This document shows, one piece after another, positions 11,717 through 31,987 of a DNA stretch of 32,000 nt. The position numbers and the translations under genes are program-made. The stretch's first letter is position 1, and each line of letters opens with the position of its first letter. The notes below the pieces were generated by a model that saw only the letters and a program-made list of their open reading frames with translations, did no database searches and had not been told where the DNA came from. This DNA is from Candidatus Saccharimonadota bacterium (GTDB lineage: Bacteria > Patescibacteriota > Gracilibacteria > UBA4473), in contig OY781871.1 of NCBI GenBank assembly GCA_963677105.1, forward strand, positions 810,001-842,000. Reading direction: 5' to 3'.

Positions 11717-12211
11717 CTAATCTTTTTTGTCCAGAATTTTAAAGCTCTTTAATATTTCAGGACACGGACTATCAGAAGCGTTTATTTGTTCAGAACTACA
11801 GCTCAATAACAAAAAGTTTGTTGATTCGGATGTGTGAATAATTTTTTGCCAGAAACTTCGAGTGGGAGTGTTTGTAGATAAATTTCCATTAAAAAAGCAT
11901 TGATTTTCATCGACAAAATTTTGTGTGAAGTTTAAAAAACCCGTTTCTGCACCTTTGCTAAGTGCTTCTCCTGTTACGAGTTCATCACTGTATTCAAATG
12001 AAATGACAACATTATCAGACCCATTTTGTGCCATTAATACAATATTTTTTCCATCATCAGGCGTTTGAAGTTTTTTCCATGATTCAGGAATAAAAATTCC
12101 TACTTCGGCGTTTCCAAGCGGAATAATTGCGTTATAAGGATCATCATGAATTACAGGAGTAGAACATCCGGCAATAGTTAGAGCGAGAACGAGAATCAGA
12201 AAGTTTTTCAT
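11717..12211 (-). CDS. Hypothetical lipoprotein
   Basis: N-terminus MKNFLILVLALTIAGCSTP has a lipobox (L-T-I-A-G-C). 164 aa with no recognisable catalytic motif. Confidence 0.6.
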   Translation of the reverse strand: MKNFLILVLALTIAGCSTPVIHDDPYNAIIPLGNAEVGIFIPESWKKLQTPDDGKNIVLMAQNGSDNVVISFEYSDELVTGEALSKGAETGFLNFTQNFVDENQCFFNGNLSTNTPTRSFWQKIIHTSESTNFLLLSCSSEQINASDSPCPEILKSFKILDKKD

Positions 12212-12240
12212 TTTTCAGGAAAAATTGTACCGTGTGAGAG

Positions 12241-14614: not shown

Positions 14615-14624
14615 AAAAAAAAGA

Positions 14625-15704
14625 TTATTTTTTTCGTAAAAATGCATCGACGAATGTATCAAGTTCTCCATCAAATACTTTATCTGGACTTCCCATTTCA
14701 CAATCAGTTCGATGATCTTTTACCAATTGATATGGTTGTAACGTGTAGGTTCGAATCTGACTTCCAAAAGAGTTTTCCATTTGTTCTCCACGCAGTTCAT
14801 CAATTCTTTCAGCATTTTGTTCCAGTTGCAATTGCAACAAACGAGATTTCAAAACTTTCATTGCTGCTTGCTTATTTTGCAATTGAGATTTTTCATTTTG
14901 ACAGGTTGCCACCAAGTTTAATGGCAAATAGGTAATTCGTACTGCCGAATCAGTTGTATTAACACTTTGTCCACCACATCCAGAAGCACGAAACACATCA
15001 ATCCTTAAATCAGAGTCTGCAATTTCAATATCAGTATCTTGTTCAATTGCAGGAAGAATTTCCACACGAGAAAAAGAAGTTTGTCGTAAATTTTTCGCAT
15101 TAAACGGAGACAATCGGATGAGTCGATGTACGCCATGTTCTGATTTCAAAAATCCATACGCATTCAATCCAGAAATTTCTAACATTGCCGATTTCAATCC
15201 TGCATCTGAGGTAGATTCTTCCATAATTTGCACTTTCCAATTTTTTCGTTCTGCATATCGCAAATACATTCGCAATAACATTTGACTAAAATCTTCTGCA
15301 TCTTGTCCGCCGTTTCCAGTAGAAATTTTCAAAATTGCATTATATCCATCGTATTCTCCAGAAAGAAGCGTCTCAATTTCTCCAGCAGCAAAGTTTTTTT
15401 CTGTCGTTTTTAGCTCACTCGCAATATCTTGTAATTCTTTATCGTCTGCCATTTCAGCAAGTTCTGGGAGATCGCGGAGATTCTCCGCAATTTGAGTCCA
15501 TATTTTGATGAATGTTTCAAGACCAGATGCTTTTTGTGAAACCTTCTGTGCATTTTCTGGATTATTCCAAAAATCAGAAGCACTCATTTGTGATTGTAAT
15601 TGCTCGAATTTCGTCTTTTTTTCTTCCAAGTCTAAGGTAGACTCAATTTCTTTATATCGAGTTGTAAGCGCGCTTAATCGTTCGAGAATTTCGGATTTTT
15701 GCAT
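14625..15704 (-). CDS. prfB: Peptide chain release factor 2
   Basis: SPF tripeptide (RLIRLSPFNA) and GGQ motif (SGCGGQSVN). The ORF is open to 15782. Alignment of the DFWNNPENAQ segment to canonical RF2 favours the Met at 15704 (MQKSEILERL), with 15740 as an alternative. Confidence 0.9.
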   Translation of the reverse strand: MQKSEILERLSALTTRYKEIESTLDLEEKKTKFEQLQSQMSASDFWNNPENAQKVSQKASGLETFIKIWTQIAENLRDLPELAEMADDKELQDIASELKTTEKNFAAGEIETLLSGEYDGYNAILKISTGNGGQDAEDFSQMLLRMYLRYAERKNWKVQIMEESTSDAGLKSAMLEISGLNAYGFLKSEHGVHRLIRLSPFNAKNLRQTSFSRVEILPAIEQDTDIEIADSDLRIDVFRASGCGGQSVNTTDSAVRITYLPLNLVATCQNEKSQLQNKQAAMKVLKSRLLQLQLEQNAERIDELRGEQMENSFGSQIRTYTLQPYQLVKDHRTDCEMGSPDKVFDGELDTFVDAFLRKK

Positions 15705-19774: not shown

Positions 19775-20731
19775 TTAAAAAAGCTGTAATTGTTCTTCTT
19801 GAATGCTTTTTTTTGACACATTTTTTTGTTCAATATTTTGTTGTTGTTCTAATTTTTTATTCAATCGAAAGAGTCGACCATTTAAACTTCTGAAGTTTAA
19901 TTTTTCAAAAAAGGATTGAAGAGAGTCATTTGGAATATCAAATTGAGAATCCCAATTAATTTCAACAGGGACGTCAGTTTTGATTTTTGCTAATACTTTA
20001 CACTGGCGCACGTACGACTCTTCAGTTTCAAGTTTTTCTCGCCACTTCATAGATAAATCTTGTGTATGATCAAAAATATTATCGAGTGTTTCCCATCGTT
20101 GGAGCCATTCAGCTGCTGTTTTAGGACCACATCCTCCGAGTCCTTTAAAATTATCAGAACTATCTCCTACAAGGGCTTTAAAATCAATCATTTGTTCTGG
20201 AGTAACTCCAAAGCGAGCTTTTACTTCTGCAGGAGTGTATATAGGAGATTGATCTATTTTTCCATTTAGTTTTACTAGATTTATTTTCGTACTCAGTAAT
20301 TGTGAATAATCAAGATCGCCGCTTACAATGCGAACATCCATATTTTTTTTTGCAGCTTGTACAGCAAGCGTTCCACAAATATCATCTGCTTCAAATCCTG
20401 GGACTTTTAAAAAAGGAATATTAAAGGCCCTGAGTAATTCTTCTACAAGAGGTATTTGTGCATAAAAATCGTTTGGAGTCGGAGTTCTATGCGCTTTGTA
20501 TTCCGTGTCCAGTTTATGTCGAAAAGTTTTTTCTTTGGTATCAAAAGCAACAATAATACGTTCTGGACGCAAGTGTTCAAGGACAGAAAGAAGTGTTGAA
20601 GCGAATCCATACACCATTCCAATAGGCATGTTATTCCAAACAGGAACAAATCCTCTATTAATTCCATGATACGCGCGATGCATCAGAGCATTTCCATCAA
20701 TAAGTACGAATGAATTTTTATTTTGCCACAT
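19775..20731 (-). CDS. Stand-alone 5'-3' exonuclease / flap endonuclease (Pol I N-terminal-domain-like)
   Basis: LIDGNALMHRAYH, VAFDTKEKTFRH..YKAHR, GFEADDICGTLA and SGDLDYSQL are present, as is the H3TH segment LVGDSSDNFKGLGGCGPKTAAEWL. No polymerase domain follows. Confidence 0.85.
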   Translation of the reverse strand: MWQNKNSFVLIDGNALMHRAYHGINRGFVPVWNNMPIGMVYGFASTLLSVLEHLRPERIIVAFDTKEKTFRHKLDTEYKAHRTPTPNDFYAQIPLVEELLRAFNIPFLKVPGFEADDICGTLAVQAAKKNMDVRIVSGDLDYSQLLSTKINLVKLNGKIDQSPIYTPAEVKARFGVTPEQMIDFKALVGDSSDNFKGLGGCGPKTAAEWLQRWETLDNIFDHTQDLSMKWREKLETEESYVRQCKVLAKIKTDVPVEINWDSQFDIPNDSLQSFFEKLNFRSLNGRLFRLNKKLEQQQNIEQKNVSKKSIQEEQLQLF

Positions 20732-20753
20732 TTTGAAGAGTGAGGAAGGTGAA

Positions 20754-21338
20754 ATGTTCGATTTTTTTCTTTTCTTCTGGTATTATATCTTGATTTACCT
20801 ACTTTACAAATCAATGACAACAACAAGTTCTGCTCTCACAAAAAAATCTACGAAGACAAAATTTCGTGTAGGTGTTGTGAGTGCGATTACAGAAACAGGT
20901 GATTCAACCTTACTCTGTTCAGCATTAGAAGCAATGTGTTCGTTGGGATTTAACGTCTCAGTTTTAGCTGAAGGTGATGCGTTAGCACAGAAACTTTGTT
21001 TTGAATATGCAGAGAAATTTCCACGAAAATTTTCCATGCTTGAGAGTATGCCGGATAATCGTGTGAAAATTTTAGAAAAAGCAGATGTGATTGTTTTTGC
21101 GACTTCTCCAACTAAAAAGGAGCTGAAAGAAATAATTGCAGCTGGAGTAATTCCTGTTTTACCGGAAGGATGTGGATTGGATAATTTTGATGCGCAAAAA
21201 GAAACTGGATGCGCGTTTACCTTTGAGGAAGGAAATATTTGGTCACTTGTGGCGGCACTTGTTCGTGCATCAGAAAATCGTAAATTTAGTTGGGATTGGA
21301 AAACAGTGAAACAAAATTTAGTTACATTTCACGGATAA
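20754..21338 (+). CDS. Glycogen/starch-synthase C-terminal-half-like protein (truncated GT-B fold) with N-terminal hydrophobic segment
   Basis: The pattern GD..........YAEKFP......ES.........ADV.VF.......LKEIIAAGVIPVLPEGCGLDNF.......GCAFTFEEGNIWSLVAALVRA.....FSWDW parallels the GlgA C-terminal Rossmann half. The track start at 20733 is TTG. The ATG at 20754 follows a GAGGAAGG sequence. Confidence 0.45.
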   Translation: MFDFFLFFWYYILIYLLYKSMTTTSSALTKKSTKTKFRVGVVSAITETGDSTLLCSALEAMCSLGFNVSVLAEGDALAQKLCFEYAEKFPRKFSMLESMPDNRVKILEKADVIVFATSPTKKELKEIIAAGVIPVLPEGCGLDNFDAQKETGCAFTFEEGNIWSLVAALVRASENRKFSWDWKTVKQNLVTFHG

Positions 21339-21363
21339 ATTTATATTTACATAGGTTGTAAGA

Positions 21364-21383
21364 GGCGTAAATACGCCTTTTGT
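21364..21383 (+). terminator. Rho-independent terminator after the GlgA-like gene
   Basis: AGGCGT-AAAT-ACGCCT followed by TTTTGTG. Confidence 0.5.
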
Positions 21384-21434
21384 GTAATATTTTGCAATAC
21401 ATTTATTCTCCGAAAAAATTTAGTATTTGTACTT

Positions 21435-21458
21435 TGATATTTGTGATTTGAAAATTGA
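21435..21458. repeat. Dispersed intergenic word cluster, copy D
   Basis: Contains TGATATTTG (21435-21443) and TTGAAAATTGA (21448-21458). Lies upstream of the small ORF and giant gene. Confidence 0.5.
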
Positions 21459-21466
21459 CATCAAAG

Positions 21467-21495
21467 TTGCTTTTTGTCCTCTGATAGTCTATAAT
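21467..21495 (+). promoter_or_regulatory. Possible sigma-70 promoter for the small ORF / giant gene
   Basis: TTGCTT (21467-21472), a 17-nt spacer, then a perfect TATAAT (21490-21495). Confidence 0.35.
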
Positions 21496-21514
21496 GAAAG
21501 GATAATGTCAACAG

Positions 21515-21706
21515 ATGAAATCGAAAAAAACAGCTCAAAAGATAAAAATGGAATTAAAAGGCCAGGATCGAATGATGTCTGCATTGAAAGATATTATGAA
21601 AAAATATGCAAAACAAACGGAAACTTTTATCCAAAAAGAAGACTCAGATACGGTAGAACATTTGCTTCAAGAATTTCCTAATACCGAAAACGATGTCTCG
21701 CTTTGA
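21515..21706 (+). CDS. Small hypothetical protein (63 aa), overlapping the start of the giant ORF
   Basis: The ATG ORF encodes a helical-looking Lys/Glu-rich peptide. Its TGA (21704-21706) lies 14 nt inside the next gene. A competing frame (ATG 21506..21681) has a less protein-like sequence. Confidence 0.35.
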   Translation: MKSKKTAQKIKMELKGQDRMMSALKDIMKKYAKQTETFIQKEDSDTVEHLLQEFPNTENDVSL

Positions 21707-24700
21707 TTCGGATGAGAGGGAATACGTTCAAGATAGATTGAAAGAAATTAAAAAATCTCTGGATGATTTGAAGGCAGAAGTGGAAGTTTCTAGAAGTGAT
21801 GAAAAAAAGATTGAACGGAGAAGAAAGGAAATGAAGAAGATGGTGAAAGCGTGTAAGAAATCTCTTGGGCTGCGCAGACGAGAGTCTCTTACACGAGAGC
21901 AAAAAGAAGACTTACATCTTTTGTCTACAGAATTTTATAGTGAAGAATATGAAGATTTAGACAGATTTAAAGAAGAGTTTCAGGAATTATCTTCCCAGCA
22001 ACAGATAGAGTTTGCTTATAATCAAGTATCAATGTCTTGGAGAGAAAAACGAAGGTTTTTTGAAAATATGGAATTGTATCAAGAGACAGGAGTTCCTGTG
22101 GCAGATATATTAAAATTAGTCGCGATAGAAGAATATGTAGAACAGGGAGAAGTGAAACTGGATATTTTTGGAAATCAACATGCTCCTTGGAATACACCGA
22201 ATGTTATAGAAATATTACCAGGTGGCTTAGAAAAGGCTCGTACGGAAATATCAGGATATTATGAAGTAGCGCTTTTAGTTGCACCTTTTACCAATCCTAC
22301 AGAAATTCTGTATAAAATAGATAATTTATCAAATGAAATTGATCGACCAGAAGTACAAAAAATTATAGAAATTGTTCATCAAAAAAATCCTGAAGGGATT
22401 ATGAATGAGTATTCAGAAAAAAATCCTCGAGCATATATTGATAAGAAGAAAAATGCAGCAGATGTATTACTTCTTCCGGCACAAAATCCACAGACAGCAA
22501 AAGATTTCTTTTCTTATTTTAATACAATAATTAAAAACTCATTTACAGAGAATGATTCAGAGAATAATAAACGATTAGAATCTGTTTTAAAGACGGCGAG
22601 TGAAAATGTATCAGAAGAAGATGAAGCAATAACAGAATTAATCAATATTGTTCTTTCAAATAAAGAATGGAATTCTGCAGAAGAGAAAACAAAACAAATA
22701 ATTGAATCAATTTCGAATTATGATTTATCAAAAATTAAGATATACACAGAAACAAAAGAAGTTGATGTCGAAGCAGCTCCATTTCCGTCACTCATTATTC
22801 CTCATTTAGGATTTCGTTTAGCGTTATCATTATTTCCAGAAGTTTATCCTCAAATAAAAGAAATTACTGGCAATGAATTAGGAAAAAAAATAACAACGCA
22901 GATCATACAACAAAATTTGCAGAATCGAGAACGTGTAGATGAAGTGTTGACTTCAAGTAACGTAGGTACAATGACGAAGGATTCAGAAGAAGTGTACAAA
23001 GACAACAATGTATTAAAAATGTTTGCAGAGACGGGTGATTTGGATGAAATATTAAATTATGTAGAAACAATAGACGATAGTTATTGGTGTAAAGCTGTTA
23101 TATTAGAAAATTTTTCTTCCGAAATGAAACGGAAAGATTTTCAGAAAATAGATGAAGATGGAAATGGGGAAGACACAGTTGCTGAACTTCTGTTTTCACA
23201 ACTTTCTTTTAATGAGGCACAAAAACATTTTCCAGCTTATTGTGAAAAATTAGGAATAGAAAAAGCTTCAGTATTGATGAAACCAATTTTTGAAAAAGCG
23301 TGGAAAAATAATACATATAATTCAAGAAACAGTTTTACATTTCTTCTTGCTTATTGTACGGAAGACGCTGGATACACCGACGAAATTTTTTCAAGTCTTG
23401 TAAAAGTTATGATTGATATAGATCGACCAAGAGTGATACAAGAATATCATTATTTTAAAGGAGAAAATGGGAATTGGCCACAAGATCACGAAAAGAGATT
23501 TTGTTCTTCCATACAGGAATTAATACCTTCTTTGTGTGCGAAAGAATATGGGGATTATTTTGAGCAACGTAAAATACAGGAAGATTTGGAAGCACCAAAA
23601 TTGAATATTGATGAAATTCATCGGAGTGATCTCTCTGAAAATTTATTAACATATTATGAAAATTTTACTGAAGAATTGGGAAAAGAGGAAGGAGAAGAAG
23701 CATTTCGTTTACTGTTGCAAGAATCCGGAAAAGTAACATCGTTATTTTATAATTTAAATTGGGAAAAGTTTTCACAAGACAAACAAGAATTTTTTGTAAA
23801 AACATGGATTAAATTCGATTCAGAGAAGCCAATTTATCGCTTAAATAAAATGCCTGATAGTTTGCAAGCATTTGTTGTGGAAATTTATTCAGATAAATAT
23901 ATAGACCGAGTTGGAAGTAAGGGTATTTGTTCGATCTTACCAAAATATTACAAAAAGATATCAGAAACAGAGGGGACAGGGGAAGCACAAAGAAAGGTTG
24001 TGGAATTACTACAAACAATGTCGGATGTAGAAAAGGTTCTTGATTATCATTATTGGAATTATGAAATGCCAAAGGACTTACAAAAACTCGTTATAAAAAC
24101 AGTGGTTCCATTGGCGCCGGAAAAGATAATATCTAATTATGATGATGTTGATTATCGTATGCGTGAAAAGGAAGTGCTTCCAATTTTATTACAGGGACAT
24201 AGAGAGCTCTGTATAAAACATTTTGATAAAATAGATTCTTACTTACATGGTGTTGACGATTTAGTTATAGATAAATTTTTTGGGAATGATCCTCAAAAGA
24301 CAATGAAAGAAATTCTTCTTACAAAGAGTGGAGTCGAGAAATCTAAATTAGAGAAAATATTTTCTCAGGCAGCAAAAAAAGAATTTTCATTTTTTCCAGA
24401 GACCTATGGAAATAGAGCGTATTTGAATATTTCAAATCGGAAAAAGCAAACAATTATTCATAAGCCAAATGAAGAAAAGTTTTTGCATGCGTGTTTGGTA
24501 GAAATGGTTGGAACAGGGGGAAAAGCAGGACTGATATTAGAACTTCTTGAGCGTCAAGGGTTTAATGTAAATATGTTTGATGATGGAGATCAAGTGTGGT
24601 TTGAGAATCAAGAATTTCATGTTCAAAGAGCAAAAGATGAGAGTATTGAAAGAGTGACATTGTATTGTGCTCGAGAAGACTTAAAAGGTTTAGGAGATTG

Positions 24701-26621
24701 GGATAAGGATAGCTGTTTGAGGTCACTAGGAGAAAAAGAAATAGTAAAAAGGGCGAAGAGAGGCGCAATGGAAGAAGTATTAGAGAATCTTCCAAATGTG
24801 GATGGATATTTTAAGAGAGATTTTATAAAAATATTTAATAAGCTTTCGTACTCTTTTGCACTAGAAACACTTCCTGATGATAATCTGCCGAATGGAACGC
24901 CCGAAATAGATATTAGTAAAAATCAATTAAGATGTTTGGCTAAAGTGTATCCTGATTTTATTTTGAAAAATATAGAAGTGTTATTAAACAATCACTTTAT
25001 TAAAGTGAATTGTATAGATTTGCTAACCGGACTTGGACCTTTTTCACCAGAGCTTTTTTGGGAAAAATTTGAGGTTATAAAAAAATATGCATTAGAGACA
25101 CCAACCAAGAAAAAACATGGAAATAATTCACCGGATTATTCATTGATGTCGGATATGTTTCTAAAATTGGCAAAGCAAAAAGAGGGAGGAAAAGAAATAT
25201 TTAAAAATATGGGAATAGTGAAAGCGTGTGTAAGTAATGAGGAGTATTTAACAGAAATATTTAAAGGAGCTGCTAAAACAGCGCCAGCAAATGCGTTGAA
25301 ACAGGAAATACTTTCTGAATACAAAGATTTTCTACAGGGAAAAGAAATCATAAACAGAGCCATAGAGTATGCTGAAAATGATGAGAAATTTATGTCGATT
25401 TTTGTATCTGCTCCAACGTATTATACCGAGTCGTATAAAGAAAAACTTACGTCAATTGCTATTAGACATTCGGAAAAGACAATGGCAATCCTTCAATCTC
25501 AGGAAGTGAAAAATGTATGGGAAGGAGCTGGACTTACAAATGTAAGAGAATATTTTGTGAAACAAGTTGAGCGTGAACTCATTAAAAATGAAGTTTATAC
25601 ATTTATTGAAAATAATCCTTCAAAACACCCTCAAGATTTAAAATCGGACCCAACATTAGAATATTATCCAGAAATCAGAGATACATGGATTACTTCGAAT
25701 GAACATTTCAAAAGTAGACCAAAATTAAAACTTCGTTTTGATCCTTCTTGTCGAAAAGAATTAAATTCACCAAAAGCTATTAAACGAAGAAAACTCTTAA
25801 TTGCTCGATATTTGGGGTTGAGAAATAAAGATTTGAATCCATCAGATATTACTCCAGAAATGGTACAAGAAGCAGATTATAAAATATTTGAGGCAAAGCA
25901 AAAGAAATACAATAAGCCTTTATTTCAAGGACGAAATGTAATAGGATATTTCCCATCAAGTGATTTAGGAATAAAATTTGAGAATTTAAAACAAGCGATT
26001 GGTGCGCAACAAACAAATAAAAACGGAGAGGTATCAGGATCGTATATTGACTTTCAAAAAGGAGAAAGATTGAGTGACGGAGCACGTGATCAAATTATCA
26101 ATGCCGATCCGCCTCTTACTTTTATAACGCATAAACATAGTGCAAGTTCAACAGTGCGTGAACTTCAAGATGCATTAATAAAACGATGGGAAAGATTGAC
26201 AGCTGAAGGAGTAGAACCTTCAGAAGAAAATAGAGATTTTCTTGTTGTTGGAGGTTGTGGCATAACGGATGACCTTAGAGATGATCTTTGTAGAGCGATG
26301 AAAAAGAGAGGATATCCTATTCCAGATATTGTTGTAGAAACAGAATATGGACAATATGGATATGCTTATTACAAAAAAGAAAAAAATACGGAATTTGGAT
26401 CATCATTTTTGGATAGAGTAGTTTTTAATAAAAATCCTCAAAAAATTTCTACATTTGGAACTATGTGGGAAAATCGAGATAAATATTATGAGATGAAAGA
26501 CTCGAAAGGAAAATCTGTTCTTCCCGGAAATGCAACATTTTTAAGTGAAGATGAACTTGGGGAATTATTACAAATTGCAATGAATGAAGAAGATGGAGTT
26601 GATGAGTTTGTGAATGTTTAA
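21693..26621 (+). CDS. Giant hypothetical protein (1642 aa), no signal peptide or TM segment, function unknown
   Basis: Uninterrupted 4.9-kb ATG ORF with uniform coding-like composition, flanked by a promoter-like site and a strong terminator. No known family motif recognised by eye, apart from a weak His/Cys dyad pattern near the C-terminus. Confidence 0.8.
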   Translation: MSRFDSDEREYVQDRLKEIKKSLDDLKAEVEVSRSDEKKIERRRKEMKKMVKACKKSLGLRRRESLTREQKEDLHLLSTEFYSEEYEDLDRFKEEFQELSSQQQIEFAYNQVSMSWREKRRFFENMELYQETGVPVADILKLVAIEEYVEQGEVKLDIFGNQHAPWNTPNVIEILPGGLEKARTEISGYYEVALLVAPFTNPTEILYKIDNLSNEIDRPEVQKIIEIVHQKNPEGIMNEYSEKNPRAYIDKKKNAADVLLLPAQNPQTAKDFFSYFNTIIKNSFTENDSENNKRLESVLKTASENVSEEDEAITELINIVLSNKEWNSAEEKTKQIIESISNYDLSKIKIYTETKEVDVEAAPFPSLIIPHLGFRLALSLFPEVYPQIKEITGNELGKKITTQIIQQNLQNRERVDEVLTSSNVGTMTKDSEEVYKDNNVLKMFAETGDLDEILNYVETIDDSYWCKAVILENFSSEMKRKDFQKIDEDGNGEDTVAELLFSQLSFNEAQKHFPAYCEKLGIEKASVLMKPIFEKAWKNNTYNSRNSFTFLLAYCTEDAGYTDEIFSSLVKVMIDIDRPRVIQEYHYFKGENGNWPQDHEKRFCSSIQELIPSLCAKEYGDYFEQRKIQEDLEAPKLNIDEIHRSDLSENLLTYYENFTEELGKEEGEEAFRLLLQESGKVTSLFYNLNWEKFSQDKQEFFVKTWIKFDSEKPIYRLNKMPDSLQAFVVEIYSDKYIDRVGSKGICSILPKYYKKISETEGTGEAQRKVVELLQTMSDVEKVLDYHYWNYEMPKDLQKLVIKTVVPLAPEKIISNYDDVDYRMREKEVLPILLQGHRELCIKHFDKIDSYLHGVDDLVIDKFFGNDPQKTMKEILLTKSGVEKSKLEKIFSQAAKKEFSFFPETYGNRAYLNISNRKKQTIIHKPNEEKFLHACLVEMVGTGGKAGLILELLERQGFNVNMFDDGDQVWFENQEFHVQRAKDESIERVTLYCAREDLKGLGDWDKDSCLRSLGEKEIVKRAKRGAMEEVLENLPNVDGYFKRDFIKIFNKLSYSFALETLPDDNLPNGTPEIDISKNQLRCLAKVYPDFILKNIEVLLNNHFIKVNCIDLLTGLGPFSPELFWEKFEVIKKYALETPTKKKHGNNSPDYSLMSDMFLKLAKQKEGGKEIFKNMGIVKACVSNEEYLTEIFKGAAKTAPANALKQEILSEYKDFLQGKEIINRAIEYAENDEKFMSIFVSAPTYYTESYKEKLTSIAIRHSEKTMAILQSQEVKNVWEGAGLTNVREYFVKQVERELIKNEVYTFIENNPSKHPQDLKSDPTLEYYPEIRDTWITSNEHFKSRPKLKLRFDPSCRKELNSPKAIKRRKLLIARYLGLRNKDLNPSDITPEMVQEADYKIFEAKQKKYNKPLFQGRNVIGYFPSSDLGIKFENLKQAIGAQQTNKNGEVSGSYIDFQKGERLSDGARDQIINADPPLTFITHKHSASSTVRELQDALIKRWERLTAEGVEPSEENRDFLVVGGCGITDDLRDDLCRAMKKRGYPIPDIVVETEYGQYGYAYYKKEKNTEFGSSFLDRVVFNKNPQKISTFGTMWENRDKYYEMKDSKGKSVLPGNATFLSEDELGELLQIAMNEEDGVDEFVNV

Positions 26622-26683
26622 AGTACAAATATTAAAGAACAAAATATTTTTAAAACAGATAGTCATACTTTGTTCGTAATAAT

Positions 26684-26712
26684 AAAAAAGAGCGGATTTT
26701 CCGCTCTTTTAA
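26684..26712. terminator. Bidirectional rho-independent terminator between convergent genes
   Basis: An A6 run, then GAGCGG (26690-26695), loop ATTTT, CCGCTC (26701-26706), then TTTTAAAAA. Confidence 0.65.
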
Positions 26713-26732
26713 AAATTAATTTTATGTATTTT

Positions 26733-27455
26733 TTATTCCATTGCTTGATTTACTCGCATAACAATACTTGGAAGTGCAGATCCTTGATCGTTGTATCCAT
26801 CTTTAAGAGAAAAGTTTTCTGTTTTTCCGTTTAATTCAAGTTGGAAAATATATGGATCATTGTCTCCGTCATAAGATTCTGGAGTGTGTCCAGCACCTTT
26901 TGCTTTTACAGGATCTGGATTCTTTGGAATATAAATTTTTCCCAATGTTCCAAGACCAATTTCATAACGACCATTTTTTAATGATGTGTTTGAAAAATCA
27001 ACATCACATTTTACTTGTTTTTTTAGATCGTCACAAAAGTCTTGAATATCAATTACTTCATTATTTTCTACATTTGCGGGGAGAGAGGTTCGTGCAACAT
27101 TCACAATTTCTTGACTATCAGTTACAGACAATGGATCCATTCCGAGCATATTTTCTGTTTGTCCGGCCTCCATTAAGTCTTCCATTAAATCAGTCCATTC
27201 ATCTTTTGTTGCTAATGCAGTTGCTAAGTCAGCTGCATCTTTCAGAATTGATTCATACATAAAGCGTATATTATCATTTTCTGATTCAGGGAGATTTGGT
27301 AAATCTGCTCCTCCATATTCAGCTTCTAATGAAAGAATGAAATTTGATTTTTCAAGAAATGCTTCTTTTGTTACATCCTCTAACCCAGCTACTCGAACGT
27401 ATTCATTTTCGAAGTTACTTTTTGAGGAAGCCGATAACGATTCACGATTATTCAT
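26733..27455 (-). CDS. Hypothetical acidic protein (240 aa)
   Basis: ATG ORF starting 13 nt after the stop of the upstream 568-aa gene. Asp/Glu-rich, with no signal peptide or known motif. Confidence 0.6.
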   Translation of the reverse strand: MNNRESLSASSKSNFENEYVRVAGLEDVTKEAFLEKSNFILSLEAEYGGADLPNLPESENDNIRFMYESILKDAADLATALATKDEWTDLMEDLMEAGQTENMLGMDPLSVTDSQEIVNVARTSLPANVENNEVIDIQDFCDDLKKQVKCDVDFSNTSLKNGRYEIGLGTLGKIYIPKNPDPVKAKGAGHTPESYDGDNDPYIFQLELNGKTENFSLKDGYNDQGSALPSIVMRVNQAME

Positions 27456-27468
27456 TATAAAAAAGGTT

Positions 27469-29175
27469 TTATTTGTTTCTTCGTGGTTTATTTCTCATTG
27501 CAGCTTGCATAATTTTTACATTAATTTTTGAAATATCTTTGGCTGCAATTATTTCTTTCTCTAAATATTGTCCTGTAACTTCTACATCTCCATTTTCTAA
27601 AACAGTACATTGATACTTATTTTTTCCTACTGTTTTTTCTACATTAGCCCCTCCTAAGAGTTCAACACTTTTTTTCTTTGTGCCAGTAGAAGTAACTTCC
27701 TTTTCTTCAGGTTTTTTTGGTTGTTCCTCCTTTTTAGCTGGTTTTTCTTCAGGTTTTTCGGGAATACTTTCTTTAGGTGATTCACTTCTATGAGCGCTTA
27801 AATGTCGTCTAATGCTTTCTTCTATAGATCCGGTATGAGGTCCCACAAGTATGAAATTTTGTTTGTCCTTCTCTTCTACTTTAATATTTCCACTTTCTAA
27901 AATTTCGCATTTAAATTTTTTACCATCAACTTTTTTGGTTTTCTTTTTTCCTTCCAAAAAGTCGATAGCTTCTTCACGTTTAATATAATTTTCTCGTTTT
28001 TCATTTGCAGTCTTTTTCATTTTTGCAATAACTTCTTCTGTTTTCTTCAAATAATTTGAAGCATCAGCCGCTGGGATAATAAGTTCATCCATTTTTCCCC
28101 ATGTTTTTTTGTCTTTCTTCTCTTTTTGCACTTCTACTTTTCCTGTTACTTGGATATCTCCATTTTTTAAAACTTCGTATTTTAAATTTCTATCAGGAGC
28201 CTCAACAGTCTTCTTTCTTGTTCCTAAGATATTAATACTTGCTTCCTTGCTTGGTTTGAATTCTTCCTTCGGTTTAGGCTCAGGTTTAGCAGCAGGTTTT
28301 GCTTCAGGATTTGCTTTCGGTTTAGGCTCAGGTTTAGCAGCAGGTTTTGCTTCAGGATTTGCTTTCGGTTTAGGCTCAGGTTTAGCAGCAGGTTTTGCTT
28401 CAGGATTTGCTTTCGGTTTAGGCTCAGGTTTAGCAGCAGGTTTTGCTTCAGGATTTGCTTTCGGTTTAGGCTCAGGTTTAGCAGCAGGTTTTGCTTCAGG
28501 ATTTGCTTTCGGTTTAGGCTCAGGTTTAGCAGCAGGTTTTGCTTCAGGATTTGCTTTTGGTTTAGGTTCAGGTTTAGCAGCAGCTTTATTTTGTGCTTCC
28601 ATAAATTTTTTTGCTCCGTCGCTTGTATAATCGTATTCTACATCAGCTGGATCTTGGATTTGAATTATAACGTCTTTTGTTGTGTCGTAATTTGGAGCTT
28701 TAGCAAACATTACTTTTTGTCCTGGGTGAATTAAATGTGCCCAGTTGTTTTCTTTTCCTCCAATAGTTCCTTGAATTCCTTCTTTTGCTGTTCCATTAGC
28801 ATTATAAAATTGAACAGTAGTTTTTGATGTAATATTAAATCGTCTTGCTTTCAGCATTTTTGCTCGATCTTTCCAAGATAAAGAAGAATCAATTCCTTTT
28901 ACACGAGCGGTTTCTGCTCTATCGAATCCATATGCAAGAGAAGCCAGGGTGTCTCCCTTTTTTACGGTTGTTGACATGGTATTAACTGCAAGATTTAGAT
29001 TAGTAAACTCTTTCAAATTATTAAGATCGGTTGAGATTTGATCTCTAATTTTGTTTTGTTCGGACGTTTCCCATTGTTTTGATGCATCAACTGCTGCATC
29101 TGTTCTTTTTTCTAAAATGAATAGAAAGGGGGAATGTCCTTTTTGTAAGCCGAAATCATGCGATAAATTTTTCAT
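27469..29175 (-). CDS. Modular repeat protein: LysM-like N-terminal region, Pro/Lys/Glu 16-aa tandem-repeat spacer, three C-terminal repeated modules
   Basis: TVKKGDTLASLAYGF ... IHPGQKVMF resembles the two ends of a LysM domain but carries a long insert. Then come six full copies plus one partial copy of AAKPEPKPKANPEAKP. Then three modules share K(Y/F)xCx(V/I)LE(N/S)G(D/N)(I/V)xV. Confidence 0.7.
   Translation of the reverse strand: MKNLSHDFGLQKGHSPFLFILEKRTDAAVDASKQWETSEQNKIRDQISTDLNNLKEFTNLNLAVNTMSTTVKKGDTLASLAYGFDRAETARVKGIDSSLSWKDRAKMLKARRFNITSKTTVQFYNANGTAKEGIQGTIGGKENNWAHLIHPGQKVMFAKAPNYDTTKDVIIQIQDPADVEYDYTSDGAKKFMEAQNKAAAKPEPKPKANPEAKPAAKPEPKPKANPEAKPAAKPEPKPKANPEAKPAAKPEPKPKANPEAKPAAKPEPKPKANPEAKPAAKPEPKPKANPEAKPAAKPEPKPKEEFKPSKEASINILGTRKKTVEAPDRNLKYEVLKNGDIQVTGKVEVQKEKKDKKTWGKMDELIIPAADASNYLKKTEEVIAKMKKTANEKRENYIKREEAIDFLEGKKKTKKVDGKKFKCEILESGNIKVEEKDKQNFILVGPHTGSIEESIRRHLSAHRSESPKESIPEKPEEKPAKKEEQPKKPEEKEVTSTGTKKKSVELLGGANVEKTVGKNKYQCTVLENGDVEVTGQYLEKEIIAAKDISKINVKIMQAAMRNKPRRNK
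28270..28585 (-). repeat. 48-bp tandem direct repeat, about 6.6 copies, in frame within the 568-aa CDS
   Basis: The unit CGGTTTAGGCTCAGGTTTAGCAGCAGGTTTTGCTTCAGGATTTGCTTT recurs at 28270, 28318, 28366, 28414, 28462 and 28510 with no differences seen by eye. The terminal copy at 28558 has two substitutions. Confidence 0.92.
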
Positions 29176-29274
29176 GTATTAAAATTACATTAGATTATTT
29201 TAACATAACCTTTTAAAAAACACAAACGTATTATATACCATTTTCTAAAAAAAAGAACAGTCATTTTCATTTAA

Positions 29275-29308
29275 AATAAAAAGTGGGAACAATATCCCAC
29301 TTTTTTAT
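29275..29308. terminator. Rho-independent terminator after the 239-aa gene
   Basis: An A-run, then AAGTGGGA (29281-29288), loop ACAATA, TCCCACTT (29295-29302), then TTTT. Confidence 0.55.
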
Positions 29309-29330
29309 AATTATTAGTAATGTGAATTAA

Positions 29331-30050
29331 TTATTCAATATCTCCTTCCAAACGTTCTCCTCGATAAAGACGACGAAGTGAAATTCCTTTATATACATAA
29401 GGTTTTTTAACTCGGCGTTTATATGTAGAAGAAACTTGTTGGCGATTTGATAAATGATTTTTCCAGCCATCTGTTGTTTCTTGAGCTTCTAATCTTTTGG
29501 TTCGACTATTAGCCTCTGTGCTCCAAAATTCTCCCGATAGTTGTCCAGAACGATCCATTTCTGTCGCAGAACCGCTTTTTATTCCGCTTCGTGCATTTCG
29601 ACGACGACTCCAGTCTTCTTTATCTTTTGTTAGGCGACGAGAGTCTTGTAACAGGAATTTTTTTGTTGTTCCAAACGACATTGTTGTAGTAGTTCGTGTT
29701 GCGCGTTTTTCTTTTCCTAGACTTTTTTCTCTATCAGAGCCTCCTCGAGTAAGGGTTCCACTTCCAATACGTCGTCTTCCGAGCACAGAAGGTTTTTCAG
29801 TATTTTTCGTTGCTGGACGTGATTTTATTCGGCGTTGCCAACGACGTTTTAATACTTCCTCAGGACTTGCACCAGTTTTTTCTGATGAGTAATTTTTACA
29901 TGAATCAACAATTTTCCAGTCACTTGGAATTTCCTTAGTATCTGTGAAAACCTTACAAGTTCCGTGAGAATCAATTGCAGATTGTTTTACATCAACTGCA
30001 AGAGTTATTGTGGGCAACATGAGAGCTGTAATCAATAATAATTTTTTCAT
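29331..30050 (-). CDS. Secreted Arg/Lys/Ser/Thr-rich polycationic protein (239 aa)
   Basis: Signal peptide MKKLLLITALMLPTITLA-VD. A short two-Cys region is followed by low-complexity basic sequence (KRRWQRRIKSR, GRRRIG, SRRRNARS, KRRVKK). Confidence 0.6.
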   Translation of the reverse strand: MKKLLLITALMLPTITLAVDVKQSAIDSHGTCKVFTDTKEIPSDWKIVDSCKNYSSEKTGASPEEVLKRRWQRRIKSRPATKNTEKPSVLGRRRIGSGTLTRGGSDREKSLGKEKRATRTTTTMSFGTTKKFLLQDSRRLTKDKEDWSRRRNARSGIKSGSATEMDRSGQLSGEFWSTEANSRTKRLEAQETTDGWKNHLSNRQQVSSTYKRRVKKPYVYKGISLRRLYRGERLEGDIE

Positions 30051-30059
30051 AATTAATAA

Positions 30060-30914
30060 TTATTTTAAGGTTTCTTCTATCACGTCATCTTCATATCCAT
30101 TTACAGGAATATTTGTAGGAAGTGGGCGTTTTGTATATTTTTTCATAGACATTGGCCGTTGAAGTTTTATTTTTTTAGTAGCAGGATTTTCTTTTTTAAA
30201 ACGATTTAAAGATCGCACTGACCGATAAGTCGATAATTTTTTTATAGCTTCCTTTTGTGATGCGTCGGTAGTATTTAGTGAAACTTTTTTTTGTGAAATT
30301 TGTTTCGGTGTTTCATATCGTCTTTTTGTATTTGCTCGAATTGTCTTTGAGGTTGAAATATTGATTTTTGATGTAGGAGAAATGAGTTTTGCTTTACGTG
30401 ACTTTCTTATAGAGATTGTTCGTTTTGATTTTACTGGAACGAATCTTTTCGATTGGATTTGGATTTTCTTTTTGAATTCTTCTGGTTCTACTTTTTTTAC
30501 ATTAGAATTCGTAGAAGACTTAATAAGAGTAGGTTTTATTGATAATTCTTTCTTTTTTTCAGTCTCCATTAAATACTGTTTCTTTTCCATTTCTTTTTTC
30601 TCCTTCCAATCAATTTTTGTTTCTTCAGGAGTTTTATTTTCTGTTAAATATGGAATATTAATTTTCCGTGTTTTTCTTTCTTGATGTCTTATAGATGTTA
30701 CAACTGGTTTTTTTATCACAGTTTTCTGTTCTTGCATTTCTTCTTGTTCTTCGCTTATAGGCATTATTGTCATTGGATCACATATTTCCTGTTCCATAGA
30801 ATCATCACATATATGTTCTATCATTTCCTCAACAGAGATAGAGGCAGGTACATCATTTGTTGCAAACGCAAAAGTGGGGAAAATGATTACTGAAGCCAAA
30901 AGTATTTTATTCAT
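30060..30914 (-). CDS. Secreted Lys-rich polycationic protein (284 aa)
   Basis: Signal peptide MNKILLASVIIFPTFAFA-TN. An acidic two-Cys segment is followed by a long Lys-rich tract (KEKKEMEKKQ, FKKKIQIQSKR, IRKSRKAK). The stop lies 9 nt before the next start. Confidence 0.6.
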   Translation of the reverse strand: MNKILLASVIIFPTFAFATNDVPASISVEEMIEHICDDSMEQEICDPMTIMPISEEQEEMQEQKTVIKKPVVTSIRHQERKTRKINIPYLTENKTPEETKIDWKEKKEMEKKQYLMETEKKKELSIKPTLIKSSTNSNVKKVEPEEFKKKIQIQSKRFVPVKSKRTISIRKSRKAKLISPTSKINISTSKTIRANTKRRYETPKQISQKKVSLNTTDASQKEAIKKLSTYRSVRSLNRFKKENPATKKIKLQRPMSMKKYTKRPLPTNIPVNGYEDDVIEETLK

Positions 30915-30916
30915 GA

Positions 30917-31987
30917 TTAATTACGGTTACGGTTTAGTAGTCGATTTCGTAGTGCTTGGAGACGAGAAGCTCGTGTATTAGAACTTGATGAAGAAGTAGA
31001 TGTACTACTTTTTCGTTCTAATGAACGAAGTTCTTTTTGATATTGTTTAATTAAATTTTTTAATTCAGTTATTCGTGCCTTAATTTCACTACTTGTCTCA
31101 GGAGTAGCGGAAGTGGTTGTAGCACTTGTTGAATTCGAAGTGGTGGTGTCAGGAGTCGTTGTTCCACCAACATTGTAACGAATTCCTAAATTTCCACGCT
31201 TTAATACACGACGATTATAATTTGATTTTTGACGAGATGTAAATGCTGCTAGTGTTTTTGTGTTGATCGTTTCACTTTTTCCAAAGCGGGTAGTTCCTTT
31301 TTTGAAATATCCAGTAGCGTAATATTGTGTAGTTGGAGTTAATCCTTCAATGAAAGCAGTTGTAATATTTCTTGGTATAACAACTTCTGCAACAGGAGAA
31401 GAGAGATCATCATTTTCAGATAAAACAATTACAAATCCATCATAATCGTTCGAACTAATACTAGGTGTGGACCATTTAAAATGAATAGATGTATCAAATT
31501 TTTCAGCTCGTAATTTTCCAAAATTAAAAGCCATATCATCTGAAGAAGAATTATCAACAATAACAGGATCATTTGCTGCAATAAATTCAGAAGTGACATC
31601 TCCATTTGTTGCCCATTCCCATTTTAATATCTTAGATCCATTGTTTAGATATTTTTTTCGTCCATCAGTTTTCAACGAATATACACGGAAATAATATGTT
31701 TGGTTTCTATCAAATCCTGCTGATCGAAGTGTCAATGTGTTTTGATTTTTAGAGGCCTGATTTCGGTATAATTTGTCATTTCGAATGTCATTTTGTACGG
31801 TACTATATTGCAGAACATATCCGCCATTTTCATCAAACATTTCACTGTCAGTGAGTTTGTCCCATTCAATCAAAAGCTGATTACCAGCAGGTGTTACATC
31901 GAGATTTTCAATCTGTCCTGCAAAAACAATGGGAGAAACTAAGAAAGCAAACCCAAATACGAAAGCCATAGGAAAGAATCTTTTCAT
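30917..31987 (-). CDS. Secreted protein with two FN3-like domains, Thr/Ser-rich linker and basic coiled-coil tail
   Basis: Signal peptide MKRFFPMAFVFGFAFLVSPIVFA-GQ. FN3-like patterns LLIEWDKL...YVLQYS...YYFRVYSL and IHFKWSTP...FVIVLSEN...TTQYYATGYF. Then TTTPDTTTSNSTSATTTSATPETSS, followed by heptad-like EIKARITELKNLIKQYQKELRSLERK. Confidence 0.55.
   Translation of the reverse strand: MKRFFPMAFVFGFAFLVSPIVFAGQIENLDVTPAGNQLLIEWDKLTDSEMFDENGGYVLQYSTVQNDIRNDKLYRNQASKNQNTLTLRSAGFDRNQTYYFRVYSLKTDGRKKYLNNGSKILKWEWATNGDVTSEFIAANDPVIVDNSSSDDMAFNFGKLRAEKFDTSIHFKWSTPSISSNDYDGFVIVLSENDDLSSPVAEVVIPRNITTAFIEGLTPTTQYYATGYFKKGTTRFGKSETINTKTLAAFTSRQKSNYNRRVLKRGNLGIRYNVGGTTTPDTTTSNSTSATTTSATPETSSEIKARITELKNLIKQYQKELRSLERKSSTSTSSSSSNTRASRLQALRNRLLNRNRN

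What the first reader, a model, noticed from the sequence alone, without database searches (positions are those of the whole stretch)
26733..31987. Five-gene minus-strand cluster of surface/secreted, low-complexity and repeat proteins convergent with the giant gene
In transcription order the cluster has two units.

**First unit (gaps of 2 and 9 nt between genes, ending at the terminator at 29275-29308).**
- An FN3-like, coiled-coil secreted protein.
- A Lys-rich secreted protein.
- An Arg-rich secreted protein.

**Second unit (13-nt gap).**
- A LysM-like repeat protein.
- An acidic 240-aa protein.

Three of the five have clean signal peptides, and none has a recognisable enzyme motif. The mix of adhesion-type folds (FN3), a possible peptidoglycan-binding module, a proline-rich spacer and polycationic tails reads like a cell-envelope or attachment apparatus rather than metabolism. 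Together with the adjacent giant protein, this is the most lineage-specific part of the window.
Basis: partly seen in the sequence, partly recalled or inferred. Interest (0 to 1): 0.65.

Follow-up and report, generated by a model that had tools for sequence, protein, structure and literature searches.

The report
Composite secreted-protein cluster, not one apparatus
The five genes are real, but they are not one machine: two belong to a secreted-protein pair that sits beside the signal peptidase gene in every sampled Peribacteria-type relative, one is a young diverged duplicate, and two belong with the giant gene to a rare island of unknown function whose proteins lack export signals.

Summary
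All five minus-strand ORFs, the 2/9/13-nt gaps, both terminator hairpins, the three signal peptides and the 48-nt repeat are confirmed.

The cluster is a composite of three things:
- **Module A (P1 and P3).** P1 (30917-31987) is a tandem-FN3, coiled-coil protein. P3 (29331-30050) is Arg-rich. This pair is conserved in that order, directly downstream of signal peptidase I (lepB), in all 13 independent related loci examined (Peribacteria/Gracilibacteria, CPR), down to 32% P1 identity.
- **P2 (30060-30914).** It is absent from all relatives. It shares only the duplicated gene junction and the first ~48 residues with P3, so it looks like a diverged tandem duplicate.
- **Module B (P4, P5 and the giant gene).** P4 (27469-29175), P5 (26733-27455) and the convergent giant gene (21693-26621) form a separate block of about 8 kb. 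It sits between the 3' ends of P3 and a conserved neighbour gene, and it is missing from that position in all close relatives. It was found in only one other contig, in a different context. None of its proteins has a signal peptide or a transmembrane segment.

The FN3 call is supported. The LysM call is not. No protein matches any characterised family. The "envelope/attachment" reading is plausible for P1-P3 only and is untested. Interest is modest.

The parts
30917..31987 (-). P1: secreted protein with a signal peptide (1-23), two FN3 beta-sandwich domains (~24-140 and ~155-245), a basic helix, a Thr/Ser-rich linker, a coiled-coil helix (299-330), a Ser-rich stretch and a basic C-terminal helix (340-355). 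Module A.
   Evidence: There are 29 homologues, all 350-430 aa with the same architecture. PF00041 hits 9 of 29 members, best E = 3.7e-15. The family profile hits fibronectin in the PDB at 2e-5. The AF2 model has pLDDT 76.6, and 80-94 in the two sandwiches. Foldseek gives 604 PDB hits at E<=1e-3, all tandem FN3.
30060..30914 (-). P2: Lys-rich secreted protein found only in this genome. It is a diverged tandem duplicate of the 5' part of P3.
   Evidence: It starts 2 nt after the P1 stop, where P3 starts in relatives. Its first 66 nt are 76% identical to the L005 P3 5' end, E = 8e-9. The junction motif TAATTAAT(C/T)ATG occurs before both P2 and P3. The N-terminal 48-64 aa are 33-44% identical to the L005 and L014 P3 orthologues. 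hhalign against the P3 family aligns only columns 1-23. No orthologue exists in the 13 related loci. It is a singleton at 90% clustering. The ORF is real.
29331..30050 (-). P3: Arg-rich secreted protein. It has a signal peptide, a small Cys-framed N-terminal module and a polybasic region with conserved motif islands (R-x-GSG-x-LTR, SAT-x-M-x-R-x-G-x-LS, LRR-x-YRG-x-RLEG). It is the conserved partner of P1. Module A.
   Evidence: An orthologue lies immediately downstream of the FN3 gene in all 13 independent loci, at 25-59% identity. Alignment A2 shows 11 invariant columns, including 2 Cys. There is no Pfam or PDB match.
29278..29305 (-). Intrinsic-terminator-like hairpin that ends the P1-P2-P3 unit. 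It is ancestral: in relatives it is the shared terminator between P3 and the convergent o201 gene.
   Evidence: It is homologous in position and sequence to the hairpins in L005 and L014 (AAAAGTGGAGCAATGCTTCACTTTTTTTT), which abut the o201 stop codon.
29230..29240 (-). Extended -10-like element TGGTATATAAT, 55 nt upstream of the P4 start. It is a possible promoter for the P4-P5 unit.
   Evidence: Read directly from the sequence. It was not called by the two-hexamer scan, so this is inference only.
27469..29175 (-). P4: basic protein with no signal peptide. It has an N-terminal ~190-aa region with a 13-residue LysM-like motif, 6.7 copies of a 16-aa Pro/Lys/Glu repeat, and three ~60-aa modules with the core KY-x-C-x-VLENGD-x-VTG. 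Module B.
   Evidence: All database hits except the self-hit are low-complexity repeat matches. The truncated ORF upstream of the P5 homologue in L015 has the same 16-aa-period repeat plus one such module.
28268..28587 (-). Tandem repeat inside P4: 48 nt x 6.7 copies, four of them 100% identical.
26733..27455 (-). P5: acidic protein with no signal peptide. It has a variable helical N-terminal half and a conserved C-terminal alpha+beta domain (~124-240). Module B.
   Evidence: An exhaustive phmmer search of 1.84 billion representatives finds only itself and P0121 at 60% identity. Alignment A4. The AF2 model is poor, pLDDT 51, and there is no fold match.
26686..26710 (.). Bidirectional terminator hairpin between the convergent 3' ends of the giant gene and P5.
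21693..26621 (+). Giant gene: 1642 aa, acidic, with no signal peptide or transmembrane segment. It is convergent with P5. Module B.
   Evidence: It is homologous to the 2062-aa gene convergent with the P5 homologue in L015: 49% over the C-terminal 851 aa and 33% over the N-terminal ~430 aa. No other relative was found in the metagenome or viral scans. No Pfam, PDB or PADLOC match.
21357..21384 (+). Terminator of the conserved neighbour gene o201 (20733-21338). It marks the left edge of the module B insertion, which spans ~21385-29277.
   Evidence: In L001, L005 and L014, o201 and P3 are directly convergent with nothing between them.

Best explanation
The region is a mosaic of two unrelated gene modules plus one young duplicate.

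**Module A (shown).** P1 and P3 form a lineage-wide pair of Sec-exported proteins. They are encoded directly downstream of the P-type signal peptidase I gene, lepB, throughout Peribacteria-type CPR bacteria. lepB lies just beyond the window's end.

**Module A, how it works (inferred).** Both proteins are exported by Sec and cleaved by the neighbouring peptidase. They lack an LPxTG sorting signal, SLH domains, a lipobox and any membrane anchor. I therefore propose that they stay on the cell surface non-covalently. P1 would oligomerise through its conserved coiled coil and display two FN3 domains on a Thr/Ser-rich stalk that may be glycosylated. The polybasic C-terminus of P1 and the polybasic body of P3 would bind anionic envelope polymers. 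Together they would form a surface or attachment layer.

**P2 (shown).** P2 arose in this lineage by tandem duplication of the P1/P3 junction and the 5' end of P3. The rest of the gene has diverged beyond recognition into a Lys-rich sequence.

**P2 (inferred).** It acts as an extra, variant polycationic surface protein.

**Module B (shown).** P4 -> P5, convergent with the giant gene, is a separate and very rare three-gene block. It occupies a variable slot between the 3' ends of P3 and o201. It is absent from that slot in all relatives examined and was found once elsewhere, where the flank that can be seen is different.

**Module B (inferred).** Its proteins have no export signals, so they probably act inside the cell. 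The strongly basic P4 and the acidic P5 may work as partners of the acidic giant protein. Their activity is unknown.
For: Module A:
- lepB -> FN3 -> P3 is found in every locus that has the relevant flank. These are L001, L003/L010, L004-L009, L011-L013 and L017, plus a JGI contig, L014 and L002, which cover only part of the block.
- P1 identity in these loci ranges from 32 to 73%. The genes further out differ (FtsA/FtsZ side in 7 loci, unrelated genes in L003, L007, L009 and L012).
- FN3 fold.
- Coiled coil and family-wide architecture.
- Signal peptides present and no anchor motifs.
- P3 has conserved Cys residues and motif islands, so it is not mere low complexity.
- lepB is P-type (GPSMCPTL and KRVIGIPGD boxes): sequence.
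- P1 and P3 evolve faster than housekeeping neighbours, as surface proteins often do. In L005 they are 62% and 59% identical, against 92% for FtsZ.

P2.

Module B:
- Absent between P3 and o201 in L001, L005 and L014, where FtsZ is 92-93% identical.
- P5 has a single homologue among 1.84e9 representatives.
- That homologue is flanked by a P4-like ORF and a convergent homologous giant gene.
- Scans of metagenome and viral contigs add nothing.
- No signal peptide or transmembrane segment.
Against: - No expression, localisation or interaction data exist, so co-transcription and surface retention are inferred from sequence only.
- lepB is a housekeeping-type enzyme, so its adjacency could be conserved gene order without functional coupling.
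- The window ends 13 nt upstream of P1, so lepB was not seen in this genome itself.
- P2 was never searched against the large protein database. Its uniqueness rests on 13 related loci and a 90% cluster look-up.
- In L015 the contig ends inside the P4-like gene. It therefore cannot be excluded that FN3-P3 lies upstream there too. Only the giant-gene flank is demonstrably different.
- Module B has host-like codon usage (GC3 0.18-0.21) and no integrase, flanking repeats or adjacent tRNA. 'Insertion' cannot therefore be told apart from 'ancestral block lost in the relatives'.
- Proteins without a signal peptide can still be exported by other routes.
Confidence: 0.55

Rival explanations
1. One reading: all five genes, together with the giant gene, form one cell-envelope or attachment apparatus that is specific to this lineage.
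For: The genes are physically contiguous, with short gaps and two terminators. Three have signal peptides. P1 has an adhesion-type FN3 fold. Charges are complementary: P2, P3 and P4 are basic, while P5 and the giant protein are acidic. The P4-side flank in L015 is unknown because the contig ends there.
Against: No related locus carries the two halves together. Thirteen loci have P1-P3 without P2, P4, P5 or the giant gene. One contig has P4-P5-giant with a different flank on the giant-gene side. P4, P5 and the giant protein lack signal peptides and transmembrane segments. A terminator conserved in relatives separates the two units.
Confidence: 0.08
2. Module A is conserved gene order only. P1 and P3 are independent secreted proteins that happen to sit next to the housekeeping lepB gene. 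There is no dedicated processing and no joint structure.
For: lepB here has the ordinary P-type catalytic boxes. lepB-to-FN3 spacers vary from about 30 to about 230 nt. The divergent ~250-aa gene upstream is conserved as well, which suggests a generally stable neighbourhood.
Against: P1-P3 spacing is 1-4 nt in close relatives. Their order survives to 32% P1 identity while both outer flanks have been rearranged. Every P1 homologue with context has P3 after it.
Confidence: 0.22
3. P3, and its derivative P2, are secreted nucleic-acid-binding proteins rather than wall-anchoring proteins. They would capture extracellular DNA or RNA for a nucleotide-scavenging, competence-dependent lifestyle.
For: They carry extreme positive charge (+25 and +26) behind a signal peptide and have long, probably disordered basic regions. 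That CPR bacteria commonly encode DNA-uptake machinery is my own background knowledge and was not tested here.
Against: No nucleic-acid-binding domain was detected. No competence genes are linked in any locus. According to PMC4736985, Peribacteria, unlike most CPR, can synthesise nucleotides.
Confidence: 0.12
4. Module B (P4, P5 and the giant gene) is a horizontally mobile accessory island, for example a defence, toxin or selfish element, that integrated between the convergent P3 and o201 genes.
For: It has an extremely patchy distribution, with two occurrences in all collections searched. It occupies a slot that varies among relatives and holds a tRNA gene in L013 and L006. The flank differs in the second genome. 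GC is slightly lower than the rest of the window, 0.326 against 0.353.
Against: There is no integrase, transposase, flanking direct or inverted repeats, or adjacent tRNA in the window. There are no PADLOC, PHROG or viral-contig matches. Codon usage is host-like.
Confidence: 0.25
5. P2 is a non-functional remnant of a duplication, a decaying pseudogene-like ORF.
For: It has no orthologues. It has the lowest coding score of the five, 0.246 bits/codon. Its body has no detectable similarity to P3.
Against: It is an intact 284-codon frame in AT-rich DNA, with 0 of 20,000 shuffles reaching that length and P ~ 5e-11. It keeps a canonical signal peptide. Its coding score is within the housekeeping range. 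It sits tightly packed between P1 and P3, with gaps of 2 and 9 nt.
Confidence: 0.12

Closest known systems
Bacterial secreted FN3-domain surface proteins (Pfam PF00041 fn3)
   Same: P1 has two confidently modelled FN3 beta-sandwiches behind a Sec signal peptide. Family members hit PF00041, and the model matches tandem FN3 ectodomains.
   Different: The window's own sequence does not reach the Pfam threshold. The FN3 pair is fused to a conserved coiled coil and a polybasic tail. There is no enzyme domain, SLH domain, LPxTG signal or membrane anchor. The family is a closed set of 29 proteins from one CPR lineage.
tapA-sipW-tasA operon of Bacillus subtilis, in which a signal peptidase gene is co-located with its secreted matrix-fibre substrates (comparison from my own knowledge)
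   Same: A type I signal peptidase gene lies immediately upstream of two Sec-exported, non-enzymatic structural proteins, in a conserved order.
   Different: The peptidase here has P-type Ser/Lys boxes typical of housekeeping LepB, not the ER-type SipW (sequence). P1 and P3 have no similarity to TasA or TapA. Dedicated processing has not been shown.
LysM peptidoglycan-binding proteins (Pfam PF01476)
   Same: P4 residues 70-82 (TVKKGDTLASLAY) resemble the first strand and helix of LysM.
   Different: Only profile positions 2-14 of 43 align, at 17.1 bits against a cut-off of 20.9. No LysM structure is retrieved. P4 has no signal peptide. It is not a member on present evidence.
Large exported Cys-rich proteins of Peribacteria (PMC4736985)
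   Same: They come from the same lineage, which invests heavily in exported proteins of unknown function that are proposed to mediate attachment.
   Different: Those proteins average ~1,655 aa, contain ~7% Cys and mostly have signal peptides. P1-P3 are small (239-356 aa) and Cys-poor (0-0.8%). The giant protein here has 1% Cys and no signal peptide.

Membership tests
Fibronectin type III domain (PF00041), for P1 | Significant match to the fn3 profile | tested here: met
   The window sequence alone matches only the FN3-like Pur_ac_phosph_N family, at E = 0.012. At family level, 9 of 29 homologues hit PF00041, best E = 3.7e-15, and the family profile hits fibronectin 6xay at 2.1e-5.
Fibronectin type III domain (PF00041), for P1 | Seven-strand beta-sandwich fold, here in tandem | tested here: met
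   The AF2 model has two sandwiches at pLDDT 80-94. Foldseek gives 604 PDB hits at E<=1e-3, and the top hits are all tandem FN3.
Sec/SPase I-dependent secreted proteins, for P1, P2 and P3 | N-terminal basic n-region, hydrophobic h-region and a small-x-small cleavage site, with no lipobox | tested here: met
   A rule-based check is met for P1-P3 and fails for P4, P5 and the giant protein. Signal peptides are conserved across both families. SignalP/DeepTMHMM were not available.
LysM domain (PF01476), for P4 | Full ~43-residue beta-alpha-alpha-beta domain scoring above the gathering threshold | tested here: not met
   17.1 bits against a cut-off of 20.9, with only profile positions 2-14 aligned. 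No LysM chain appears among PDB sequence hits at E<=10.
Single conserved operon or gene cluster (the five genes as a unit) | Linkage of the member genes conserved across related genomes | tested here: not met
   Only P1-P3 (plus lepB) are linked, in 13 independent loci. P2, P4 and P5 are absent from all of them. P4-P5-giant recur together once, on another contig.
Dedicated signal peptidase/substrate operon (SipW-TasA type) | ER-type (Ser/His) accessory signal peptidase next to its substrates | tested here: not met
   The adjacent peptidase has P-type boxes, SM-x-PTL and KRVIG-x-PGD (sequence). The adjacency itself is met.
Cell-wall-anchored surface proteins (sortase, SLH or lipoprotein types) | LPxTG sorting signal, SLH domains or a lipobox | tested here: not met
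   There is no LPxTG motif or lipobox in any of the six proteins. There are no SLH hits, although an SLH-bearing NlpC/P60 protein is encoded elsewhere in the window.
Integrative mobile element or genomic island, for module B | Integrase or transposase, flanking direct repeats, or insertion at a tRNA gene | tested here: not met
   No such genes or repeats occur in 20700-29400. The tRNAs lie only at 11.1-11.7 kb. The patchy distribution alone is compatible with an island.
Phage-derived or defence-system genes, for module B and P1 | Match to PHROG or PADLOC models, or to viral contigs | tested here: not met
   The BFVD fold hits for P1 are generic FN3 only, with TM 0.2-0.25.

The most novel reading that the evidence does not exclude
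The lepB-FN3-polybasic-protein block is a dedicated envelope structure specific to Peribacteria. It would be a non-covalently, electrostatically anchored surface or attachment layer, made of a coiled-coil FN3 'stalk' (P1) and a polycationic 'glue' protein (P3), and processed by the co-encoded signal peptidase. P2 would then be a caught-in-the-act case of a new secreted protein born by duplicating a signal peptide and re-inventing the mature part. Separately, P4-P5-giant could be a new, very rare intracellular system built around a giant protein with a possible His/Cys active site.
Probability: 0.2. Interest if true: 0.55.

Novelty: new variant of a known kind. Interest (0 to 1): 0.33.

Why it matters
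CPR bacteria such as Peribacteria are uncultivated and are thought to depend on other cells, so their surface proteins are the likeliest mediators of that dependence. A secreted FN3/polybasic pair that is conserved in all 13 sampled relatives and tied to the signal peptidase gene is a concrete, testable candidate for a core envelope or attachment component of the group. P2 is a small, clean example of how a new secreted protein can arise from a duplicated signal peptide.

The negative result matters for annotation. Contiguity and shared 'odd' composition made six unrelated genes look like one system, and comparative synteny splits them. None of this touches a long-standing open question, and the functions remain inferred.

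Tried and rejected
- **Exact-sequence contig look-up** of P1 and of its shorter database form found nothing, so the window's own contig beyond position 32000 could not be read.
- **Frameshift hypothesis for P2.** I tested whether P2 is a frameshifted copy of P3 (Arg AGA read as Lys AAG). Translating P2 in all three frames against P3 orthologues gave no out-of-frame similarity. Rejected.
- **Profile comparison of P2 with the P3 family** aligns only the signal peptide.
- **Word-indexed homology searches.** The P4 search returned only low-complexity repeat matches. The giant-protein search returned only the self-hit and missed even the known L015 homologue, because the candidate cap was filled by common words. 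The giant-protein result is therefore not evidence of absence.
- **P5 structure prediction** with two sequences was too poor (pLDDT 51) for a meaningful fold search.
- **Permissive Pfam scans** of domain-sized segments of the giant protein, P4 and P5, and PDB profile searches for the giant protein's C-terminus, P5, the P3 family and the P4 module, gave nothing.
- **Search for flanking repeats or inverted repeats** at the module B borders found only short chance-level matches.
- **Literature search** for the FLOH01/GCA_900089805 assembly found nothing.
- **Phage origin** was considered and rejected.
- **Defence system** was considered and rejected.

Full report

Yes. They are convergent with a 1642-aa plus-strand gene at 21693-26621.

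- The gaps of 2, 9 and 13 nt follow from the coordinates and the sequence.
- A terminator-like hairpin at 29278-29305 separates P3 from P4. A bidirectional hairpin at 26686-26710 separates P5 from the giant gene.
- Each annotated frame is the best of its six frames by a codon-usage score trained on the window's housekeeping genes. The scores are 0.25-0.54 bits/codon, against 0.21-0.60 for the training genes.
- For P2, which has no homologues, none of 20,000 shuffles gave an open frame of 284 codons.
- P1, P2 and P3 have canonical Sec-type signal peptides. P4, P5 and the giant protein have neither a signal peptide nor a hydrophobic segment long enough to span a membrane.
- The charge and composition claims hold.
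- The proline-rich spacer in P4 is 6.7 copies of a 48-nt unit at 28268-28587.
- No Pfam, NCBIfam, PHROG or PADLOC model reaches its threshold on any of the proteins.

**2. Which organism?**

The window carries rpoD, greA, argS, argG, prfB, ftsA and ftsZ at about 34.5% GC. The database copy of P1 sits on a 962,416-bp contig. Genomes holding P1 relatives are labelled Candidatus Peribacteria, Gracilibacteria or Altimarinota. This is a small-genome CPR bacterium of the Peribacteria type that uses the standard genetic code.

**3. Module A: P1 and P3 with the signal peptidase**

P1 has 29 homologues. All are 350-430 aa long and share one architecture: a signal peptide, two beta-sandwich domains, a Thr/Ser-rich linker, a conserved helix (I-x-ELK-x-LIKKYQ-x-EL) and a Ser-rich basic tail.

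The FN3 call is supported at family level:
- PF00041 hits 9 of 29 members, best E = 3.7e-15.
- The family profile hits fibronectin in the PDB.
- The AlphaFold model, built on the 29-sequence alignment, shows two sandwiches at pLDDT 80-94 and helices at 299-330 and 340-355.
- Foldseek returns 604 PDB matches at E<=1e-3, all tandem FN3.

I fetched the genomic context of P1 homologues at 32-73% identity and ran tblastn with all window proteins against them. In every locus the gene immediately after the FN3 gene is the orthologue of P3, not of P2. In every locus with upstream sequence, the gene immediately before it is signal peptidase I, usually preceded by a divergent ~250-aa gene. Further out the neighbours differ: the FtsA/FtsZ side in 7 loci and unrelated genes in L003, L007, L009 and L012.

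P3 is not just low complexity. Its family alignment shows a Cys-framed N-terminal module and conserved islands in the basic region, including a C-terminal LRR-x-YRG-x-RLEG motif. It has no Pfam or PDB relatives.

**4. P2 is a local invention**

P2 has no orthologue in any of the 13 independent loci, and its 90% cluster is a singleton. It starts 2 nt after the P1 stop codon, where P3 starts in relatives.

- Its first 66 nt are 76% identical to the 5' end of the L005 P3 gene, E = 8e-9.
- The junction motif TAATTAAT(C/T)ATG is present before both P2 and P3.
- Its first 48-64 residues align with the L005 and L014 P3 orthologues at 33-44% identity.
- Beyond that point there is no similarity in any frame.

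The simplest reading is a tandem duplication of the junction and the 5' part of P3, followed by divergence of the upstream copy.

**5. Module B: P4, P5 and the giant gene**

In the close relatives L001, L005 and L014, where FtsZ is 92-93% identical, P3 is followed directly by the convergent o201 gene. The two share one hairpin that is homologous to the window's 29278-29305 hairpin. In the window, about 8 kb (roughly 21385-29277) lies between them, and o201 has its own terminator at 21357-21384.

- P4 matches nothing except through its repeat.
- P5 matches only one other protein among 1.84 billion representatives.
- That protein, P0121, lies on contig FLOH01000292.1. There it is preceded by a truncated ORF with the same 16-residue-period Pro/Lys/Glu repeat and the same VL-x-NG-x-V-x-VTG module as P4.
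- It is followed, in convergent orientation, by a 2062-aa gene homologous to the window's giant gene: 49% over 851 aa and 33% over the N-terminal ~430 aa.
- The genes beyond that giant gene are unrelated to those in the window.
- Scans of metagenome and viral contigs with the giant protein's C-terminal alignment and with P5 found nothing further.

P4 -> P5, convergent with the giant gene, is therefore a coherent but very rare block, separate from module A.

It has no integrase, flanking repeats or adjacent tRNA, and its codon usage is host-like. The slot it occupies is variable in relatives: empty in some, a tRNA gene in L013, and a tRNA plus pdxS/T and other genes in L006. I cannot tell an insertion here from loss elsewhere. 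Because the FLOH contig ends inside the P4-like gene, I also cannot exclude that P3 lies upstream there.

The LysM label for P4 is not supported. P5's predicted structure was too poor to interpret.

**6. How it most likely works**

Shown:
- The gene structures, the export signals and the FN3 fold.
- The conserved lepB-P1-P3 order.
- The duplication origin of P2's 5' end.
- The separate, rare P4-P5-giant block.

Inferred:
- P1 and P3 are exported, cleaved by the adjacent peptidase and retained at the surface without covalent or SLH anchoring, through their polybasic parts.
- P1 oligomerises through its coiled coil to present FN3 domains.
- P2 adds a variant polycation.
- Module B acts in the cytoplasm, with basic P4 and acidic P5 as possible partners of the acidic giant protein.

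The paper on complete Peribacteria genomes notes a strong investment in exported surface proteins and sugar polymers (PMC4736985). That fits a surface role for module A, but the paper does not mention these genes.

**7. Comparison with known systems, and novelty**

P1 is a new, lineage-restricted architecture built on the well-known FN3 domain. The peptidase-plus-substrates layout recalls tapA-sipW-tasA, but the peptidase here is the ordinary P-type enzyme and the substrates are unrelated. P3, P2, P4, P5 and the giant protein belong to no described family.

This makes the region a new variant of a familiar kind, a secreted surface-protein locus, sitting beside an orphan island. It is not a new kind of system on present evidence.

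**8. Verdict**

The 'five-gene apparatus' dissolves into a conserved two-gene secreted module, one young paralogue and a rare non-secreted block. Interest is modest at 0.33. The best lead for follow-up is the lineage-wide lepB-FN3-polybasic block.

Noticed in passing
window 25443-26618 (giant protein residues ~1480-1525) and L015 1385-2560: The C-terminal region of the giant protein has a conserved pattern, 'DPPLTFITHKHSA', then about 40 residues, then 'F(L/I)(V/I)(V/I)GGC'. The His, His and Cys are invariant between the only two known homologues. A strand-His followed by a strand-Cys resembles caspase-like (clan CD) catalytic dyads. No Pfam or PDB sequence match supports this.
   Followed up: partly
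window 3266-7089 (+): A PKD + 7TM_transglut membrane protein (3266-4789) overlaps by 4 nt a fusion of a sugar-transfer-associated ATP-grasp domain with a MATCAP-type carboxypeptidase domain (4786-7089). This looks like a conserved two-gene system unrelated to the finding.
   Followed up: no
window 13691-14701 (-): This gene encodes an NlpC/P60 cell-wall hydrolase with SLH domains. The organism therefore uses SLH-type wall anchoring, which makes the lack of SLH in P1-P3 informative.
   Followed up: partly
window 31214-31243 (-), inside the P1 coding sequence: The best sigma-70-like match in the region (TTTACA-18 nt-TATAAT, 11 of 12) lies inside P1, about 300 nt upstream of the P2 start. It might give P2-P3 an internal promoter. 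Overall, promoter-like sites are fewer than in shuffles, so it may be chance.
   Followed up: no
L013 ~12009-12233, L006 ~2979-3194 and L008 12242-12886: The slot between P3 and the o201 gene varies among relatives. It is empty in L001, L005 and L014. It holds a tRNA gene in L013, a tRNA plus pdxS/pdxT and an 837-aa gene in L006, and two small ORFs in L008. This is the slot where module B sits in the window.
   Followed up: partly
L003/L010 16598-21167: In the 1.02-Mb genome GCA_030429505.1, a gene of at least 1886 aa with SpvB, TcdB_toxin_midN and RHS-repeat domains lies about 5 kb downstream of the FN3-P3 pair.
   Followed up: no
window 28268-28587: Four of the 48-nt repeat copies in P4 are 100% identical. 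This suggests recent expansion and probably length variation between strains. The plus-strand ORF at 28109-28630 and the six 'terminators' called inside the repeat are artefacts of it.
   Followed up: partly
window 20733-21338 (+): The o201 ORF probably starts at its internal Met28. Orthologues begin at the equivalent MTTT... position and are 182 aa long. It has no Pfam match, but it is conserved next to the 5'-3' exonuclease gene.
   Followed up: no
L015 7791-9734 (+): Next to the second copy of the giant gene lies a 647-aa protein with an N-terminal hydrophobic segment and no Pfam hit on record. It has no counterpart in the window.
   Followed up: no
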